Virus genome (UHGV): UHGV-0283905
Origin: a virus
DNA: 37,978 bases
Strand: one strand, 5' to 3'
Each line of letters starts with the position of its first letter. The stretch's first letter is position 1. Shown piece after piece: positions 2,520 to 34,080 of this stretch. The notes under the pieces are model-generated. The model was given only the letters and a program-made list of their open reading frames with translations. It was not told the DNA's origin and ran no database searches. The position numbers and the translations under genes were made by a program.

Positions 2520-3292
2520 GCTTCAGGGCTGTTCCAGTGCGGAACGTTGTTATCAGGTAATGTTGATTGCTTCTGTCTGCTAATCTGCAGCCGCCTTGCC
2601 AGCTTCTGCTCCCACTGTGCCTGATGGTATGCCTTACCCTCAGCCATCCAGTAAATTCTGAACTCTGCAAGTTCCTGTGCCGTTGGCAGACTGTCCAGGT
2701 AGATCCCCTGCAAGGAGCTTTTCCGAAGAAAGTCATCTGATGGCTGCCATTGTTCATGCATGACAAATTTGCCTAATTGCCCTGGCCCACCAGGAGGAAC
2801 AAAGTTATTCATCACGGCGTTGTTTGCGCCGGGGTCATGAGGCACAGAATCCCCGTTTTTTGTCCTGCTCTCCCTCTCTTGGTTAAATGACTGGTTATAT
2901 GACTGGTTCTGGATCCCGTTTTTGGGATCATTCAACATCCCGTTTTTGGGTATATTCCCGTTTTCGGTAACATTACCGTTTTCGGGTTCATTGCCCCCCT
3001 CCCGGTTGCCTTTAATGTTCCCGTTTTTGGTTATATTAAGAGAGAAAACCCGCACTCTTTTCGTCGCTCCCTTTCTCTCTCCGGTATCTGAAATAAGCCC
3101 CATTTTCATGAGCGATATAAGCCCGGCCTGCACGGTTTTTTTATTCAGGCAAGTGTCTTTAACGAGGCGTTCTATGCTGGGGTAGCAGAGGTTATATTCA
3201 TCGGCTCTGTCAGCCATCGAGAGCAGTATGAGCTTTAATGACGAGCTACCTGGATCTGTCTCCCAGGCCCAATCTGTTGCATGTCTGCTCAT
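2501..3292 (-). CDS. replication initiator, lambda O-like, with origin iterons inside the coding sequence
   Basis: 263 aa; N-terminal winged-helix-like segment; central KNG/ENG peptide repeats encoded by DNA iterons; immediately upstream of the P-like gene. Confidence 0.65.
   Translation of the reverse strand: MSRHATDWAWETDPGSSSLKLILLSMADRADEYNLCYPSIERLVKDTCLNKKTVQAGLISLMKMGLISDTGERKGATKRVRVFSLNITKNGNIKGNREGGNEPENGNVTENGNIPKNGMLNDPKNGIQNQSYNQSFNQERESRTKNGDSVPHDPGANNAVMNNFVPPGGPGQLGKFVMHEQWQPSDDFLRKSSLQGIYLDSLPTAQELAEFRIYWMAEGKAYHQAQWEQKLARRLQISRQKQSTLPDNNVPHWNSPEAWEDFL
2912..3030. repeat. candidate origin iterons (about five copies of CCCGTTTT(T/C)GG) inside the O-like gene
   Basis: Copies begin near 2914, 2939, 2957, 2974 (variant) and 3020, followed by AT-rich TTATATTAAG; a separate tandem TGACTGGTT x2 lies at 2889..2910. 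Confidence 0.6.
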
Positions 3293-3508: not shown

Positions 3509-3658
3509 GGTAAGCCCTGTTATTAGTATTTGGATTACGGTTATTTTGTGCTGACACAAAAAAAAGATCAACCAGATTTGGTTTTTTATTACCTTTGAGG
3601 TACGGATAGATATGAAAAGACCGCCGGGTGGCGGTCTACAGAGGGTTGTAGCTGGATA

Positions 3659-5236: not shown

Positions 5237-6132
5237 TGCGGAACGCTGGAATCATGGATAGAACAAAATACATCGGAGGAAGCGATGTTGCAGGGATTCT
5301 TGGAATTAGCCCATGGCGCACCCCGCTTGAGGTTTATCTGGATAAGGTCCAGCCACGTGTCAAACCAGTAGACCCAAGCAAGCAGAAAGTTTTCACGCGT
5401 GGCCAGCGTATGGAGCCATACGTAATAGACCTGCTTTCTGAGGAAACAGGGATGGAAATCGTTCATCGCGGAAACCGCTATATCCACCGTGATTACGATT
5501 TTATTGCAGCTGAGATCGATGCAGAAGCAGCGTCAGGCGAGAACATTGAGATCAAAACAGTTAGTCCGTTCAAAGCCAAAGAATGGGGAGAAATCCAGAC
5601 AGATGCAATTCCTGTGCATTACACGGCCCAGGCCATGCACGGGTTGATGGTTACAAACAAACAGGTATGCGTTTTCGGTGTGCTTATCGGTGGCGACGAC
5701 TTCCGAATCTATCGGGTTGAGCGTGATGAAGAAACTATCCAGGCGATCTTAGAAAAAGAAATCGCTTTCTGGGACCGAGTGAAAAATCTTAACCCGCCGG
5801 AAGCTACCAGCGTAAGCGATGTATCGCTGATGTTTGAGAAAGATGCCGGGACAAGTATCGAGGCTGACGGAAAGGCACTCGCACTATTCAACAATCTACG
5901 AGACATGAAATCACGCAGAAAATCACTGGAAGAAGAAATAGCTATATCAGAAGAGAAGCTGAAGATGTACATGCAAGAGCACTCAGTCCTGACCCTGGAC
6001 GGAAAGCCGCTCTGCACATGGAAATCTCAGATCAGCAACAGATTCGACCAGAAGCTATTCCAGTCAGTACACCCTGAGTTATTCGAAAAATTCAAAACAA
6101 CAACGACACAACGCGTCTTCAGAATGAAGTAA
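5233..6132 (+). CDS. YqaJ-family viral recombination exonuclease (lambda Exo-like)
   Basis: N-terminal KYIGGSDVAGILGISPWRTPLEVYL matches the YqaJ signature; immediately upstream of a RecT-type gene. Confidence 0.8.
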   Translation: MMRNAGIMDRTKYIGGSDVAGILGISPWRTPLEVYLDKVQPRVKPVDPSKQKVFTRGQRMEPYVIDLLSEETGMEIVHRGNRYIHRDYDFIAAEIDAEAASGENIEIKTVSPFKAKEWGEIQTDAIPVHYTAQAMHGLMVTNKQVCVFGVLIGGDDFRIYRVERDEETIQAILEKEIAFWDRVKNLNPPEATSVSDVSLMFEKDAGTSIEADGKALALFNNLRDMKSRRKSLEEEIAISEEKLKMYMQEHSVLTLDGKPLCTWKSQISNRFDQKLFQSVHPELFEKFKTTTTQRVFRMK

Positions 6133-7213: not shown

Positions 7214-7462
7214 ATGAAAGGTGCATTAGGTAAGAAAGAACTCCTGGCGGTGGTGCCACTGTCATGGAGCACTATCGACCGTATGGAGCGCGCAGGGGAA
7301 TTTCCTAAACGCTGGTATATCACCGATAAACGCTGCGCATGGAACCGTGATGAAGTTGAGCGTTGGCTTGATGAACGTCAGGCAGCAAGCCCGGCAGAGT
7401 TCCAGGGTAAAAAGCCTCCTGTTCAGCAACGTGTATATCGTCCCGTGAGCAACGCTGCATGA
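7214..7462 (+). CDS. AlpA-family phage transcriptional regulator / excisionase-like HTH protein
   Basis: 82 aa; LLAVVPLSWSTIDRMERAGEFPKRWYITDKRCAWNRDEVERWLDE fits the AlpA/MerR-type HTH pattern; commonly partnered with P4-type integrases. Confidence 0.7.
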   Translation: MKGALGKKELLAVVPLSWSTIDRMERAGEFPKRWYITDKRCAWNRDEVERWLDERQAASPAEFQGKKPPVQQRVYRPVSNAA

Positions 7463-7571: not shown

Positions 7572-7871
7572 GTGAGAAAGTTAAGCCGACTTGAAAAATA
7601 TCACATGAATAAGGTTTCAATGCGCAGTCCGTCAAAGATTGTCGCCGTTACTCCTGCGGCGATAGAGATCGAAAAACGCGCGATTGAAAGAGAGAAAAAA
7701 GGGCAATTCCGCATTGCCGCTCACCTTTGGCTTCAGTGTATGGATGTTGCTTCTGGTGATGTTGAACGTGCAAGGATCGCGGTTCGCAGGGACCAATGTA
7801 TCACAAAAGGTAACGGCCTTCGCCGTGGCGACTATAGCGGTATAGGATGTTGCGGGGTGGTTTATGACTAA
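7572..7871 (+). CDS. PerC-like transcriptional regulator (tentative)
   Basis: 99 aa, GTG start at 7572 (alternative ATG 7605); segment AIEREKKGQFRIAAHLWLQCMDV...RRDQC resembles my recollection of PerC family proteins. Confidence 0.35.
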   Translation: MRKLSRLEKYHMNKVSMRSPSKIVAVTPAAIEIEKRAIEREKKGQFRIAAHLWLQCMDVASGDVERARIAVRRDQCITKGNGLRRGDYSGIGCCGVVYD

Positions 7872-8514
7872 GAAATACACACTAATCTATGCAGATCCAC
7901 CCTGGGTATACCGGGACAAAGCCGCAGATGGTAATCGCGGTGCCGGTTTTAAATATCCGGTTATGAGTGTGATGGATATCTGCCGCCTTCCTGTGTGGGA
8001 TTTGGCCGATGAAAACTGTCTGTTGGCCATGTGGTGGGTGCCAACACAACCACTCGAAGCACTAAAAGTTGTTGAAGCCTGGGGATTCCGTCTGATGACC
8101 ATGAAGGGATTCACGTGGATAAAATGTGGTAGTCGACAACCAGATAAACTGGTTATGGGTATGGGTCACATGACTCGCGCCAATAGTGAAGATTGCCTGT
8201 TTGCAGTAAAGGGAAAACTACCTCCGCGCATTAATGCAGGGATCGTTCAGTCATTTACCGCACCGCGGCTTGAGCATTCAAGAAAACCAGATGTCGTTCG
8301 TGAAAAACTTGTGCAATTGTTAGGCGATGTTTCTCGCATTGAACTGTTCGCCCGCCAGTCGTCTCATGGCTTCGATGTTTGGGGTAATCAGTGCGAAGAC
8401 CCGGCAGTGCAACTACACCCTGGATACGCGTTGGATATTGCCAGATTAACAAATGCATTCAGCAATGCTCCGCTGTCACCAACAGACAACCAGGGGCGGG
8501 AGCGTGCAGCATGA
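7864..8514 (+). CDS. MT-A70-family DNA N6-adenine methyltransferase (orphan)
   Basis: 216 aa; catalytic DPPW motif in YADPPWVY; no adjacent restriction endonuclease gene. Confidence 0.85.
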   Translation: MTKKYTLIYADPPWVYRDKAADGNRGAGFKYPVMSVMDICRLPVWDLADENCLLAMWWVPTQPLEALKVVEAWGFRLMTMKGFTWIKCGSRQPDKLVMGMGHMTRANSEDCLFAVKGKLPPRINAGIVQSFTAPRLEHSRKPDVVREKLVQLLGDVSRIELFARQSSHGFDVWGNQCEDPAVQLHPGYALDIARLTNAFSNAPLSPTDNQGRERAA

Positions 8515-8708: not shown

Positions 8709-9959
8709 TTATTCCCCCGCCATCCACTTCTCAAACTTCGACGGGGAGAACGGAATCAGATCCGTATGCTCCCCGTCAATCCAAGAATCAATCATATCGG
8801 CCCACTGCTGCAACATGTAGGCGCGCTGTCTGGCGTATTCCGCTTTGTTATATACGGCGCGCACACCTTTCTGCTCATGTGCCAGAGCCTTTTCAATCCA
8901 GTCTGAAGGATAACCAGCCTCATGCAACAACGTACTGGCTGTACGGCGCATATCGTGTACGGTGAAGTCCTGAATATGCTCACCATCTTCATTTATTATT
9001 TTCACCGTTCTGTCGATCAGAGAGTTCAGTGCGGCATTAGATAATGGCTTCCGGAAATTGTAACGACCAGGAACCAGGTATTCACTTCCACCAGCGCACA
9101 TCTGCAACCCGACCAATATATCCTGTGCCTGTTTAGGCAGGTAAATAACGTGCGCCCGGCTTCCTTTCATGCGGTCTGAAGGAATTGTCCATGTCCATTT
9201 TTTAAAATCTATTTCATCCCACGTTGCATTGGTGAATTCGCCCTTACGAACCATAGTGATAAGCACCAGTTTTAAAGCCATTTTCATAGTGCCCATAGCA
9301 CCAATGGCATCCAGCGTGCGGAAGAACAGGCCAATTTCTTCTGGTGTCAGTGTTCGCTCTCGTGGTTTAAATATGGCGATAGACGAAGGTTTAATGTCAG
9401 CCGCAGGATTAAACAAACCATGACCACGGTCATTGGCGTGACGGTATACGCTGCTGATGATCTCCCTGGCCTGCACTGCTGTTGCCCGGCCACCGCGTTC
9501 GACAATCCGGTCACACAAATCACGAACCATCGATGTGGTAATTTCAGCCATCATTTTATTGCCAAGAACCGGAAGTATGTCACGGTCGATCACCGCCTGT
9601 TTCATTGCGCGGGTACTGTCAGCCAGGATGACGTGTTTCATATAACTGTCGGTATGTACCGCAAACGTCTCGGCACCACGAATCTTTTTGATACCGTCAC
9701 GTTTAGCCGCAGCCGGTGACTGGCCTGCTTTAAGCAGCTTCTTTGCAGCAATCAGTTCTTCTCGCGCTTCTGCCAGGCTGATACCGTCACGCCCATACTG
9801 CCCGATTACCAGCGTTTCGCGGCGACCGTTGATACGGTAGTCGTAGCGAAACGAGACCGTGCCTGACGTAAGCACAGCCACATACAGCCCGTCACGATCG
9901 GAAACTTTGTACAGTTTGTCCTGTGGCTTGAGGTTTTTTAATTTTGTATCGGTAAGCAC
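8709..9959 (-). CDS. int: tyrosine integrase, P4-type
   Basis: 416 aa; N-terminal arm-binding-like segment LKPQDKLYKVSDRDGLYVAV; C-terminal catalytic region with HDMRRTASTLL and AHEQKGVRAVY (catalytic Tyr). Confidence 0.9.
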   Translation of the reverse strand: MLTDTKLKNLKPQDKLYKVSDRDGLYVAVLTSGTVSFRYDYRINGRRETLVIGQYGRDGISLAEAREELIAAKKLLKAGQSPAAAKRDGIKKIRGAETFAVHTDSYMKHVILADSTRAMKQAVIDRDILPVLGNKMMAEITTSMVRDLCDRIVERGGRATAVQAREIISSVYRHANDRGHGLFNPAADIKPSSIAIFKPRERTLTPEEIGLFFRTLDAIGAMGTMKMALKLVLITMVRKGEFTNATWDEIDFKKWTWTIPSDRMKGSRAHVIYLPKQAQDILVGLQMCAGGSEYLVPGRYNFRKPLSNAALNSLIDRTVKIINEDGEHIQDFTVHDMRRTASTLLHEAGYPSDWIEKALAHEQKGVRAVYNKAEYARQRAYMLQQWADMIDSWIDGEHTDLIPFSPSKFEKWMAGE

Positions 9960-10001
9960 AATTCACCCGTATAGAAACCATTTTCATGACGGTATGAGAG
10001 T

Positions 10002-10016
10002 ATACCTTTAAGGTAA
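10002..10016. promoter_or_regulatory. dyad site ATACCtttaaGGTAA about 43 bp upstream of the integrase start
   Basis: Variant of the TTACC-N5-GGTAA motif. Confidence 0.45.
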
Positions 10017-10248
10017 TACCGTCACCTGTACCGCCAAAAAATATGGTGTAGAGTGAATAGAAATGAATACATAAAAACAAAAACCCTCTGCAAAAACAGA
10101 GGGTTAAGTTGACATCTGAATAGAAATGATTTGCTATGAGTTAGCTGTTAATCATTCCCACTCAATTATTTACGGACACCATAACTAATTGAGTGATAAC
10201 ATTTTTCCAAAGATGAATTTTTCTCGTACCGTTTTATATACCGTCACC
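10016..10248. repeat. direct repeats in the int-proximal non-coding region (candidate attP arm sites)
   Basis: TGAATAGAAATGA at 10054..10066 and 10118..10130; ATACCGTCACC at 10016..10026 and 10238..10248; they flank a hairpin at 10084..10103. Confidence 0.4.
10072..10103 (-). terminator. intrinsic terminator ending the lysis/late transcript before int
   Basis: CCCTCTG-caaaaa-CAGAGGG hairpin; minus-strand RNA continues UUUUUGUUUUU. Confidence 0.7.
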
Positions 10249-10276
10249 GGAAATCAGTACCATGAAAAATGCCATG

Positions 10277-10759
10277 CTATCTGGTCAGTGTGTCGTACTG
10301 TTTTTCGCAGACTCTTCCGGCTTCGGCTGCCCGGTCAGCATACTCTGCCAGTTGTCTGTTTCTCTCGAGAGATTTGCTGAGCACGTCGGCAAGCAAAACT
10401 CCGGTGTCTGCGGCTGACGTCCCAGCGCCGACAATGGCGTTATACTGCCTGAGCTGCTCACGGATGGCAAAGAGTTGTTGCTGCAACCGGCCAGCGCGAG
10501 CGGCAGCATCAAGAGCATCATTGCGCGCCTGGTCGATCCTCTGCTGAGCTTCACGTTCATTGGCCACTTTCTCCTGTTCGTAGTACTGACGAACTTTGTC
10601 TTCTTCGGCTTTGCGGTCTTCTTCCGCCTGCGCATACCCGGCATCGTACTGGCGACTGCCGTGTATATTCCAGGAAACCACTCCGACGATGAACAGAGCA
10701 GCAAGCATCAACACAATAAGCATCTGTTTCCAATATGCTTTTACGAATGCCCAGATCAT
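10277..10759 (-). CDS. i-spanin (Rz-like)
   Basis: 160 aa; N-terminal TM helix MLIVLMLAALFIVGVV then charged coiled-coil periplasmic domain; directly downstream of the endolysin (ATGA overlap). Confidence 0.75.
   Translation of the reverse strand: MIWAFVKAYWKQMLIVLMLAALFIVGVVSWNIHGSRQYDAGYAQAEEDRKAEEDKVRQYYEQEKVANEREAQQRIDQARNDALDAAARAGRLQQQLFAIREQLRQYNAIVGAGTSAADTGVLLADVLSKSLERNRQLAEYADRAAEAGRVCEKQYDTLTR
10285..10560 (-). CDS. o-spanin (Rz1-like lipoprotein) embedded in the +1 frame of Rz
   Basis: Internal ATG at 10560 gives MNVKLSRGSTRRAMMLLMLPLALAGC... with lipobox LAGC and a Pro/Ser-rich mature part; AGGAG upstream; ORF table frame is 10285..10704. Confidence 0.6.
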   Translation of the reverse strand: MNVKLSRGSTRRAMMLLMLPLALAGCSNNSLPSVSSSGSITPLSALGRQPQTPEFCLPTCSANLSRETDNWQSMLTGQPKPEESAKNSTTH

Positions 10760-34003: not shown

Positions 34004-34080
34004 GTGGCATTAGCTCAGTTGGACAGAGCAACCGCCTTCTAAGCGGTTGGTCGCAGGTTCGAATCCTGCATGCCACGCCA
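34004..34080 (+). tRNA. tRNA-Arg (anticodon UCU), CCA encoded
   Basis: Hand-folded cloverleaf: acceptor GTGGCAT/ATGCCAC, D-arm GCTC-AGTTGGACA-GAGC, anticodon arm ACCGC-CTTCTAA-GCGGT, T-arm GCAGG-TTCGAAT-CCTGC, discriminator G, CCA. Confidence 0.85.

What the first reader, a model, noticed from the sequence alone, without database searches (positions are those of the whole stretch)
9960..10276. Candidate attP and int control region with two pairs of direct repeats and a dyad site
The integrase 3' end abuts a convergent gene with only 3 bp between them, so attP is most likely on the 5' side. The 316 bp between int and Rz carry TGAATAGAAATGA x2 (10054, 10118), ATACCGTCACC x2 (10016, 10238), the terminator hairpin and an ATACC-N5-GGTAA site. 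These are plausible arm-type or host-factor sites. No tRNA-like core was recognisable.
Basis: inference. Interest (0 to 1): 0.45.

Follow-up and report, generated by a model that had tools for sequence, protein, structure and literature searches.

The report
Known phage attP at guaA end
This stretch is the attachment site (attP) that a phiV10/epsilon15-type temperate phage uses to insert into the last codons of the host gene guaA; the site was already mapped experimentally in near-identical phages, so the finding is correct but ordinary.

Summary
The window is a Uetakevirus, 96-97% identical to phiV10, ZX5 and EC.W1-9. In 568 of 5,426 complete E. coli genomes this region is split. The int-side match ends at 10166 and the Rz-side match starts at 10150. 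That gives a 17-bp core, AATCATTCCCACTCAAT, the reverse complement of the guaA 3' end (ATT GAG TGG GAA TGA TT). This is the attP core published for ZX5, 190 bp upstream of int.

ATACCGTCAC is the arm-type integrase site. It is invariant in nine phages. Across 28 related guaA-linked integrases from Gamma-, Beta- and Alphaproteobacteria it sits at fixed distances from the guaA stop codon. Two further copies lie inside int and are kept by selection on the DNA, so attP probably extends to about 9691.

The TGAATAGAAATGA pair flanks a terminator homologous to guaA's own. Repeats occur at that position throughout the family, but their sequence differs by lineage. They are probably sites for an accessory factor or excisionase; this is inferred.

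A weak promoter-like site for int overlaps one arm site. IHF sites are not statistically supported, and no RNA-level role is supported.

The parts
10150..10166 (.). attP common core AATCATTCCCACTCAAT. It is identical to attB and is the reverse complement of the guaA 3' end ATT GAG TGG GAA TGA TT. The guaA stop codon complement TCA is at 10152-10154.
   Evidence: The int-side prophage match ends at 10166 and the Rz-side match begins at 10150 in 568 E. coli genomes. attL, attR and attB were aligned. The same core is published for ZX5, phiV10 and epsilon15.
10156..10163 (.). Probable strand-exchange (overlap) region TCCCACTC, the reverse complement of GAGTGGGA. The proposed layout is C = TTAATCATT (10148-10156), O = CCCACTC (10157-10163), C' = AATTATTTA (10164-10172).
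   Evidence: In a Klebsiella lysogen the native guaA end is GAG TAA, so attP/attB identity is only TCCCACTCAAT (10156-10166). GIsul2 recombines at GAGTGGGA. A 7/9 dyad flanks a 7-bp spacer (read from the sequence; inference). The block 10151-10173 is invariant in nine phages.
10016..10025 (+). Arm-type Int site ATACCGTCAC on the int-proximal arm, 127 nt from the guaA stop. A degenerate tandem partner GTACCGCCA lies 12 bp away at 10028-10036.
   Evidence: Exact 10-mer. Invariant in nine phages. The 127-nt position is conserved in nearly all of the 28 family loci.
9986..9995 (-). Inverted arm-type copy ATACCGTCAT, 1 mismatch, about 157 nt from the guaA stop and 27-36 nt upstream of the int start.
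   Evidence: An inverted copy at 156-168 nt from the stop recurs across the family. It is less conserved among the phages.
10238..10247 (+). Arm-type Int site ATACCGTCAC on the Rz-proximal arm, about 80 bp from the core centre. A degenerate tandem partner GTACCGTTTT lies 12 bp away at 10226-10235.
   Evidence: Exact 10-mer. The block 10227-10247 is invariant in nine phages.
9781..9790 (+). Arm-type motif inside int, at codons 57-60 (R-D-G-I), 362 nt from the guaA stop.
   Evidence: Exact copy. Annotated as integrase-binding in epsilon15. T GAC GGT AT is kept in 15 gammaproteobacterial int genes even though residue 57 varies R/I/P/A/S. Codons 58 and 59 are among only 4 of 96 fully invariant synonymous-capable codons.
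9691..9700 (+). Second arm-type motif inside int, at codons 87-90 (R-D-G-I), 452 nt from the guaA stop.
   Evidence: G89 GGT is invariant in all 15 gamma sequences.
9438..9447 (-). Third exact copy inside int, in the opposite orientation. It is not generally conserved and its status is uncertain.
   Evidence: Present only in the window and in phage Tyrion among seven phages.
10082..10105 (-). Rho-independent terminator (AACCCTCTG / CAGAGGGTT plus a T-run). It ends the late lysis operon in the phage. After integration it sits about 45 nt past the guaA stop and replaces guaA's own terminator.
   Evidence: and annotated in phiV10 and epsilon15. The stem is identical to the native guaA terminators of E. 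coli K-12 (31/46 over the aligned block) and K. pneumoniae (33/46). The two hosts match each other at 31/46.
10054..10066 (+). Terminator-flanking direct repeat TGAATAGAAATGA, copy 1, on the int side of the terminator.
   Evidence: TAGAGTGAATAG and TGA are invariant in nine phages. Lineage-specific repeat pairs flank the terminator in the family loci.
10117..10129 (+). Terminator-flanking direct repeat TGAATAGAAATGA, copy 2, between the terminator and the core. It matches the reverse complement of the core at 10 of 13 positions.
10003..10015 (.). The arms are invariant and the spacer varies. It lies in the spacer of the putative int promoter.
9999..10025 (-). Only promoter-like element upstream of int: -35 GTGACG (10025-10020), a 15-nt spacer, and -10 TATACT (10004-9999; TATAAT in epsilon15). 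The -35 lies inside the arm-type site.
   Evidence: Relaxed scan, 9 of 12 matches. The standard scan found none. The epsilon15 variant is visible. Function is inferred.
10160..10198 (.). IHF-consensus-like sequences next to the core: 10160-10172 (+), 10182-10194 (-) and 10186-10198 (-), each with 1 mismatch.
   Evidence: Annotated as IHF sites in epsilon15. xxTCAATnnnTTA is conserved. There is no window-wide enrichment (36 matches against 36.8 expected).
8709..9959 (-). int: a tyrosine integrase with an N-terminal arm-binding domain.
   Evidence: Pfam Arm-DNA-bind_3 (3.9e-20), Phage_int_M and Phage_integrase.
7214..7462 (+). AlpA-family ORF, the candidate excisionase (recombination directionality factor, RDF).
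   Evidence: Pfam Phage_AlpA, 24.2 bits against a cutoff of 21. AlpA promotes excision of the guaA-integrating island GIsul2.
10277..10759 (-). Rz (DUF2514) with embedded Rz1. This is the last late gene and is separated from int on integration.

Best explanation
The int-Rz intergenic region is the phage attachment site attP of a lambda-style system, in which a tyrosine integrase binds both arm sites and the core.

Shown:
- The 17-bp core at 10150-10166 is identical to the last four sense codons, the stop codon and two following bases of host guaA.
- Recombination there puts int directly downstream of guaA and puts Rz next to yfgI.
- guaA keeps an intact 3' end.

Inferred from comparison:
- Strand exchange occurs within TCCCACTC (10156-10163).
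- Int's N-terminal domain binds the ATACCGTCAC sites. On the int side these are a tandem pair at 10016 and 10028 and an inverted copy at 9986. On the Rz side they are a tandem pair at 10226 and 10238.
- Int probably also binds two copies inside its own gene (9781 and 9691), so the functional attP spans roughly 9691-10250.
- The terminator at 10082-10105 is a homologue of guaA's own terminator. It ends the late operon in the phage. In the lysogen it terminates guaA and shields int from read-through.

More tentative:
- The TGAATAGAAATGA pair flanking the terminator binds an element-specific accessory protein, most likely the AlpA-type excisionase.
- A weak int promoter overlaps the 10016 arm site, which would allow Int to repress its own gene.
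For: Junction mapping:
- 568 of 5,426 E. coli genomes carry the region split at 10150-10166, next to guaA.
- Base-level attL, attR and attB were aligned in H10407 and K-12.
- A Klebsiella lysogen narrows the exchange region to 10156-10166.
- ZX5, phiV10 and epsilon15 have the same published core, 190 bp 5' of int. GIsul2 recombines at GAGTGGGA.

Arm sites:
- Int has an Arm-DNA-bind_3 domain.
- There are 5 exact ATACCGTCAC copies, all within 9438-10247.
- The sites are invariant in nine phages at 79-98% identity.
- 28 integrases of 47-91% identity all lie 190-318 bp downstream of guaA. In them TGACGGTAT sits at fixed distances from the guaA stop (115, 127, about 167 inverted, 192, 262). Its density is 13.6 per kb, against 0.62 per kb in guaA.
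- The in-gene copies are kept at synonymous positions and across amino-acid changes.

Terminator: homologous to the guaA terminator.

Flanking repeats: present at the same position across the family, with lineage-specific sequence.
Against: - No protein-binding data exist for any repeat. The arm-site assignment rests on comparison and on a predicted annotation in the epsilon15 record.
- IHF-like matches are no more frequent than chance in the window.
- The promoter-like site is weak (15-nt spacer, 9 of 12). The standard scan found no promoter.
- The in-gene copies are absent from the beta- and alphaproteobacterial relatives. They are therefore not essential to the family mechanism.
- The C-O-C' assignment is a 7/9 dyad in AT-rich DNA and could be chance.
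- The Rz-side arm could be compared only within Uetakevirus phages.
Confidence: 0.9

Rival explanations
1. The repeats and dyads act at the RNA level, not as recombination sites. On this view they form hairpins in the 3' UTR of the late lysis transcript or the 5' leader of int mRNA. These would be RNase III processing sites, as annotated in epsilon15, and would control int expression in the manner of lambda sib.
For: The epsilon15 record annotates two RNase III sites here. On the minus-strand RNA the guaA-end sequence UGAGUGGGAAUGA can pair with UCAUUUCUAUUCA (copy 2 of the repeat). The stem is 13 bp, and its three non-Watson-Crick pairs are all G.U. The copies at 9987-9995 and 10016-10024 form a 9-bp stem.
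Against: The alignment fold shows essentially no covariation: the covariation term is +0.32, with 1 compensatory pair in 69. Where one arm varies (9987-9995 in BUCT554, Tyrion and BUCT711), the partner does not compensate. No Rfam family matches. The arm motif also occurs without any pairing partner at 10238, 9781 and 9691, and at fixed DNA distances from the core in distant relatives. Copy 1 of the 13-mer lies beyond the terminator. In other lineages the terminator-flanking repeats do not resemble the core. The hairpins lie upstream of int, not downstream as sib does.
Confidence: 0.1
2. The ATACCGTCAC copies bind a protein other than Int, such as the phage repressor or a host regulator. They would form a transcriptional control region for int rather than attP arms.
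For: One copy overlaps the -35 of the only promoter-like element upstream of int. Copies occur inside the int gene, far from the core. No binding data exist.
Against: The motif co-occurs with this integrase clade across three proteobacterial classes and in non-phage contexts, where the other element genes differ. It keeps fixed distances from the recombination core rather than from the int start codon. It flanks the core on both sides. Int carries a dedicated arm-binding domain.
Confidence: 0.07
3. The repeats are non-functional relics, for example leftovers of captured guaA-flanking DNA or of local duplications. On this view only the 17-bp core matters.
For: The terminator and core are clearly host-derived sequence. 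The 13-mer resembles the reverse complement of the core at 10 of 13 positions.
Against: The repeats are the most conserved blocks of an otherwise diverging spacer in nine phages. They exceed shuffle expectations. The arm motif is maintained over 47-91% Int divergence and at synonymous codon positions.
Confidence: 0.03

Closest known systems
[quoted passage not shown]
   Same: The region is 94-98% identical to E. coli members and 79-85% identical to Salmonella, Enterobacter and Klebsiella members. The core attgagtgggaatgatt is the same and lies 190 bp upstream of int. The terminator is the same, and the ATACCGTCAC copies match those annotated as integrase sites in the epsilon15 record.
   Different: Nothing substantive; this window is another isolate of the same module. 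The published work available here defines only the 17-bp core. The arm architecture, the in-gene sites and the terminator homology come from this analysis or from predicted annotation.
Phage lambda attP (P arm - COC' - P' arm, Int with arm-binding and core-binding domains, IHF, Xis)
   Same: A tyrosine integrase with an N-terminal arm-binding domain. A short core shared with attB. Repeated arm-type sites on both sides at about 80 bp and about 130-170 bp from the core. IHF-consensus-like sequence directly next to the core on the short arm. A separate small excisionase candidate.
   Different: The target is the 3' end of a protein-coding gene, which the phage reconstitutes. int lies next to the long arm and is read away from the core. 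The arm-site sequence is unrelated to lambda's. Arm-type copies extend into the int ORF. The RDF candidate is AlpA-type, not lambda Xis-type. A terminator sits inside the long arm. Binding by Int and IHF is untested.
GIsul2 and related guaA-integrating genomic islands (P4-like Int plus AlpA)
   Same: Integration at the 3' end of guaA, with the recombination motif GAGTGGGA lying inside this phage's core. int lies immediately downstream of guaA. An AlpA-type RDF is present. In this analysis 28 relatives of the phage Int across Proteobacteria share the guaA-int arrangement.
   Different: GIsul2 is a genomic island, not a phage. Homology between its Int and this Int was not tested here. The GIsul2 paper does not mention arm-type sites.
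KplE1 (CPS-53) intS regulation, in which the integrase promoter overlaps attL arm sites and Int autorepresses (from my own knowledge: Panis et al. 2010)
   Same: int is transcribed away from the core, so its upstream region coincides with an attP/attL arm. The only promoter-like element overlaps an exact arm-type site.
   Different: The promoter here is only a weak consensus match, and neither a transcription start nor repression has been shown.

Membership tests
Uetakevirus guaA-specific attP (ZX5 / phiV10 / epsilon15) | Core sequence attgagtgggaatgatt located about 190 bp 5' of int | tested here: met
   Core at 10150-10166 and int start at 9959, so 190 bp lie between them.
Uetakevirus guaA-specific attP (ZX5 / phiV10 / epsilon15) | Prophage junctions in lysogens fall at this core, at the 3' end of guaA | tested here: met
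   568 E. coli genomes have the split at 10150/10166 with guaA adjacent. H10407 and K-12 were aligned base by base. A Klebsiella lysogen shows the same.
Uetakevirus guaA-specific attP (ZX5 / phiV10 / epsilon15) | Sequence homology of the whole int-Rz spacer and flanking genes | tested here: met
   96-97% identity over 801 bp to phiV10, ZX5 and EC.W1-9. Nine-phage alignment.
Lambda-type complex attP (heterobivalent tyrosine integrase) | Integrase with a separate arm-binding N-terminal domain plus core-binding and catalytic domains | tested here: met
   Pfam Arm-DNA-bind_3, Phage_int_M and Phage_integrase.
Lambda-type complex attP (heterobivalent tyrosine integrase) | Repeated arm-type sites on both sides of the core, distinct from the core sequence | tested here: met
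   ATACCGTCAC lies on both arms. It is conserved and positionally fixed across the family. This is sequence evidence only.
Lambda-type complex attP (heterobivalent tyrosine integrase) | Int physically binds the arm sites and bridges them to the core | not testable with these tools
   Needs footprinting or EMSA.
Lambda-type complex attP (heterobivalent tyrosine integrase) | IHF (or other bending-protein) sites within the arms | tested here: inconclusive
   Three 1-mismatch consensus matches lie next to the core. The window total is 36, against 36.8 expected by chance.
Lambda-type complex attP (heterobivalent tyrosine integrase) | Inverted core-type sites flanking a 6-8 bp overlap | tested here: inconclusive
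   A 7/9 dyad TTAATCATT / AATTATTTA surrounds CCCACTC. This fits the Klebsiella and GIsul2 limits but could be chance in AT-rich DNA.
guaA-3'-end integrase family (GIsul2-like) | Recombination motif GAGTGGGA at the guaA 3' end | tested here: met
   Its reverse complement TCCCACTC is at 10156-10163, within the core.
guaA-3'-end integrase family (GIsul2-like) | Integrase homologous to GIsul2 Int | not tested
   No GIsul2 Int sequence was compared. 28 relatives of the phage Int (47-91% identity) are guaA-linked.
Lambda sib-type retroregulation by RNase III | A conserved RNase III hairpin downstream of int that is separated from it by integration | tested here: not met
   The candidate hairpins lie upstream of int and show no covariation. 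There is no Rfam match.
KplE1-type autoregulated int promoter within attL | A functional int promoter overlapping arm-type sites | tested here: inconclusive
   One weak promoter-like site (9 of 12, 15-nt spacer) overlaps the site at 10016-10025. The standard scan found none.

The most novel reading that the evidence does not exclude
The functional attP is much longer than the intergenic region. On this reading, integrase arm-type sites are embedded in the codons of the integrase's own arm-binding domain (9781-9790 and 9691-9700). Selection on the DNA keeps them there, and they serve as distal arm sites or as operators through which Int senses and limits its own synthesis. More broadly, a guaA-specific integrase family spanning Gamma-, Beta- and Alphaproteobacteria would share one rigid arm-site layout (115, 127, 167 inverted, 192, 262 nt from the guaA stop), which does not appear to have been described.
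Probability: 0.45. Interest if true: 0.4.

Novelty: already known. Interest (0 to 1): 0.2.

Why it matters
This confirms that the first-stage reasoning was sound: attP lies on the 5' side of int, and conserved repeats mark its arms. It also places this window in a well-characterised integration module.

Practical value is modest. About 10% of complete E. coli genomes carry an element inserted at this guaA site. The module restores guaA's coding end and supplies a look-alike terminator, which is consistent with the report that ZX5 lysogeny has no detectable cost to the host.

The family-wide fixed geometry of the TGACGGTAT sites and the in-ORF copies give concrete sites to test. That would help anyone engineering guaA-targeted integration vectors, or studying how P4-type integrases assemble their recombination complexes.

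Tried and rejected
- RNA-level function: the alignment fold showed no covariation and the Rfam scan found nothing. Rejected as the main role.
- IHF consensus scan: no enrichment over chance. The sites are kept only as candidates.
- Standard sigma-70 scan: no promoter in the region. Only a relaxed scan found one weak candidate.
- The 13-mer as an extra core-type Int site or a partner for the core: the resemblance to the reverse-complemented core (10 of 13) is not statistically notable (14 matches at up to 3 mismatches against 12.6 expected). It also does not hold in other lineages.
- Viral-contig scan with Int: it returned only 99-100% identical copies, so it was useless for footprinting.
- The epsilon15 genome paper (PMC2698709) is not held. 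A text search for the arm motif returned only unrelated sequence matches.
- The exact 16-mer core was not found at the Klebsiella Rz-side junction. Reading the junction directly showed this is because the native Klebsiella guaA end differs, which turned out to be informative.
- One script line gave a wrong distance from terminator to core because CAGAGGGTT also occurs at 3639. The correct spacing, read from the sequence, is 44 nt.

Full report
**What the window is.** The region and its flanks are 96-97% identical to Escherichia phages phiV10, vB_EcoP_ZX5, EC.W1-9 and the O157 typing phages 9 and 10. They are 81-87% identical to Salmonella phages epsilon15 and SPN1S, Enterobacter phage BUCT554 and Klebsiella phage BUCT711. 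All of these are genus Uetakevirus. On the minus strand the gene order is tailspike, holins, endolysin, Rz/Rz1 (10759-10277), a 317-bp spacer (10276-9960) and int (9959-8709). A convergent DUF1382 ORF ends 3 bp from int's stop codon.

**Checking the observation.**
- TGAATAGAAATGA lies at 10054 and 10117.
- ATACCGTCACC lies at 10016 and 10238.
- A terminator lies at 10082-10105 on the minus strand.
- The dyad has a perfect form, TACC-N5-GGTA, at 10003-10015.

The repeats are not chance. A 13-nt exact direct repeat arose in 1 of 2,000 dinucleotide shuffles of the spacer, and a repeat of 11 nt or more in 36 of 2,000. ATACCGTCAC has five exact copies in the 38-kb window, all between 9438 and 10247, plus an inverted one-mismatch copy at 9986. 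That makes 11 matches with one mismatch allowed, against 1.67 expected. TACCGT occurs four times in the spacer against 0.24 expected.

**Where attP is.**
- A search of 5,426 complete E. coli genomes found the region in 568, almost always split into two places. The int-side piece always ends at window 10166 and overlaps the annotated guaA. The Rz-side piece always begins at 10150.
- In ETEC H10407 the int-side junction reads phage-AATCATTCCCACTCAAT-guaA, and the Rz-side junction reads yfgI flank-AATCATTCCCACTCAAT-phage. The empty site in K-12 carries the same 17 bases at the end of guaA.
- The core is therefore 10150-10166, the reverse complement of ATT GAG TGG GAA TGA TT.

This is the sequence that the ZX5 paper verified by PCR and sequencing of attB, attL and attR. 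That paper places it 190 bp upstream of int and states that the same core holds for phiV10 and epsilon15 (PMC9782041). TL-2011b, a relative, is also reported in guaA. The finding is correct and already known.

**Narrowing the exchange site.** A Klebsiella pneumoniae lysogen (MK416010.1) has a native guaA end of GAG TAA. That native sequence remains at the Rz-side junction, while guaA in the lysogen ends with the phage's GAA TGA. Identity between attP and that attB is only TCCCACTCAAT (10156-10166), so exchange must occur there. The genomic island GIsul2 recombines at GAGTGGGA in the same guaA end (PMC9376610), which is the reverse complement of 10156-10163. A 7/9 inverted repeat, TTAATCATT (10148-10156) and AATTATTTA (10164-10172), flanks CCCACTC and would fit a C-O-C' core with a 7-bp overlap. 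This is inference. It agrees with the block that is invariant in all nine phages (10151-10173). That block runs 7 bp beyond the attB identity on the Rz side.

**The ATACCGTCAC repeats are arm-type integrase sites.** Int carries an Arm-DNA-bind_3 domain. In a nine-phage alignment with mean column identity of 87%, the most conserved spacer blocks are:
- GGTAATACCGTCA (10012-10024);
- TACCGTTTTATATACCGTCAC (10227-10247);
- the core;
- the terminator;
- the two TGAATAG...TGA motifs.

Each exact copy has a degenerate partner 12 bp away, at 10028-10036 and 10226-10235. The epsilon15 GenBank record already labels these 10-mers 'integrase' binding sites, as a prediction.

A scan of one genome per bacterial species with the Int protein found 47 relatives. 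The 28 with 47-91% identity come from Enterobacterales, Aeromonadales, Neisseriales, Rhodocyclales, Burkholderiales and Caulobacterales. All of them lie 190-318 bp downstream of a guaA ending in IEWE*, in the same orientation. In these spacers TGACGGTAT (one mismatch allowed) occurs at 13.6 per kb, against 0.62 per kb in the adjacent guaA sequence. It sits at nearly fixed distances from the guaA stop: 115 and 127 (tandem), about 167 (inverted; 156 in the enteric group), 192 and 262. The window's sites at 10016 and 9986 correspond to the 127 and 156 positions. The distances are fixed relative to the core and not to the int start, which is what arm sites would show and promoter elements would not.

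**Copies inside int.** The copies at 9781-9790 and 9691-9700 encode R-D-G-I twice, within the arm-binding domain. They are present in all seven phages examined. Across eight phage int genes only 20% of amino-acid-invariant codons are identical in all sequences. By contrast, five of the six synonymous third positions within the two motif copies are invariant.

In 15 gammaproteobacterial int genes only 4 of 96 such codons are identical in all, and three of the four are motif codons (D58 GAC, G59 GGT, G89 GGT). Residue 57 varies among R, I, P, A and S, but its codon always ends in T, which preserves T-GAC-GGT-AT. That pattern indicates selection on the DNA sequence and not on the protein. The beta- and alphaproteobacterial relatives lack these copies and instead have more sites in a longer spacer. 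I conclude that attP probably extends to about 9691. The role of the in-gene sites, whether as distal arm sites or in autoregulation, is open.

**The terminator.** Its stem (AACCCTCTG / CAGAGGGTT) is identical to that of the native guaA terminators of E. coli and K. pneumoniae. Over 46 aligned bases the phage matches them at 31 and 33 positions, as well as the two hosts match each other (31). After integration the phage copy lies about 45 nt past the guaA stop. The native terminator ends up just past the core at the Rz-side junction, where it can terminate the late operon. Every family member supplies a terminator at this position. This is the known strategy of reconstituting the target gene's 3' end, extended here to its terminator.

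**The TGAATAGAAATGA pair.** The two copies bracket the terminator and are conserved in the nine phages. In distant relatives, direct repeats occupy the same two positions but differ in sequence. Examples are CTATCG-N5-CTATCG in beta- and alphaproteobacterial elements and TTGATAACGATTG in Pantoea. Conserved position with lineage-specific sequence suggests an element-encoded accessory protein. The obvious candidate is the AlpA-family ORF at 7214-7462, because AlpA drives excision of GIsul2. This is inference.

The 13-mer resembles the reverse complement of the core at 10 of 13 positions. It could pair with the core in minus-strand RNA through three G.U pairs. I do not favour that reading for four reasons:
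- the resemblance is not statistically notable;
- it is absent in other lineages;
- the alignment fold shows no covariation;
- no Rfam family matches.

**int control.** The standard scan finds no sigma-70 promoter. A relaxed scan finds one candidate on the minus strand: -35 GTGACG (10025-10020), a 15-nt spacer containing the TACC-N5-GGTA palindrome, and -10 TATACT (10004-9999), which is TATAAT in epsilon15. Its -35 lies within an exact arm site, so Int autorepression as in KplE1 intS is plausible but unproven. IHF-consensus-like sequences lie next to the core at 10160-10198 and are annotated as IHF sites in epsilon15. The consensus is no more frequent in the window than in shuffles.

**Verdict.** The novelty class is 'already known'. 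This analysis adds four things:
- a narrowed exchange region;
- a family-wide arm-site layout;
- evidence that arm-type sites inside the int ORF are under DNA-level selection.

These additions are incremental and interest is low.

Noticed in passing
window 10082-10105; L004 about 5915-5940; L098 about 3075-3100: The phage terminator has the same 9-bp stem as the native guaA terminators of E. coli K-12 and K. pneumoniae. It is as similar to each of them (31/46 and 33/46) as they are to each other (31/46). The phage seems to carry a captured or co-evolving copy of the host gene's terminator.
   Followed up: partly
L098 3120-3150 and L099 1705-1735 (Klebsiella prophage MK416010.1): Integration in Klebsiella rewrites the end of guaA from GAG TAA to GAA TGA, a synonymous codon change plus a different stop codon. 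The attB core there matches attP over only 11 bp.
   Followed up: yes
L100-L138 (genome-contig loci), positions about 1180-1500: Integrases 47-91% identical to this one sit 190-318 bp downstream of guaA in Gamma-, Beta- and Alphaproteobacteria. TGACGGTAT sites lie at nearly fixed distances (115, 127, 167 inverted, 192, 262 nt) from the guaA stop. A text search for the motif found no description of it.
   Followed up: partly
window 9438-9447 (minus orientation); also about 496 nt from the guaA stop in L100, L102, L105, L106 and L107: Additional inverted arm-motif copies recur inside int at varying positions in different relatives. Whether they are functional or chance is unclear.
   Followed up: no
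window 34004-34080: A tRNA-Arg (anticodon TCT) gene is carried by the phage. The homologous H10407 prophage also has a tRNA-Arg.
   Followed up: no
L003 3028-5643 (ETEC H10407 prophage): The H10407 prophage of this type carries an IS66-family element (ISCro1) inserted in the tail-fibre/tailspike region, next to a truncated pseudogene. That prophage is probably defective.
   Followed up: no
phage records PP488543.1 (138 kb) and PP350014.1 (115 kb): Two 'phage' records three times the size of a Uetakevirus contain this int-attP-Rz module intact. They may be concatenated or mis-assembled records.
   Followed up: no
E. coli genome hits, e.g. NZ_CM142769.1 (H31): Five E. coli genomes contain an unsplit copy of the region. 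H31 has three places, which would fit a tandem double lysogen or an excised circle in the assembly.
   Followed up: no
window 7572-8514: A PerC-family regulator ORF (7572-7871) and an ORF at 7864-8514 whose homologue in the H10407 prophage is annotated as an MT-A70 methyltransferase lie in the early-left operon, between the AlpA-like ORF and int.
   Followed up: no
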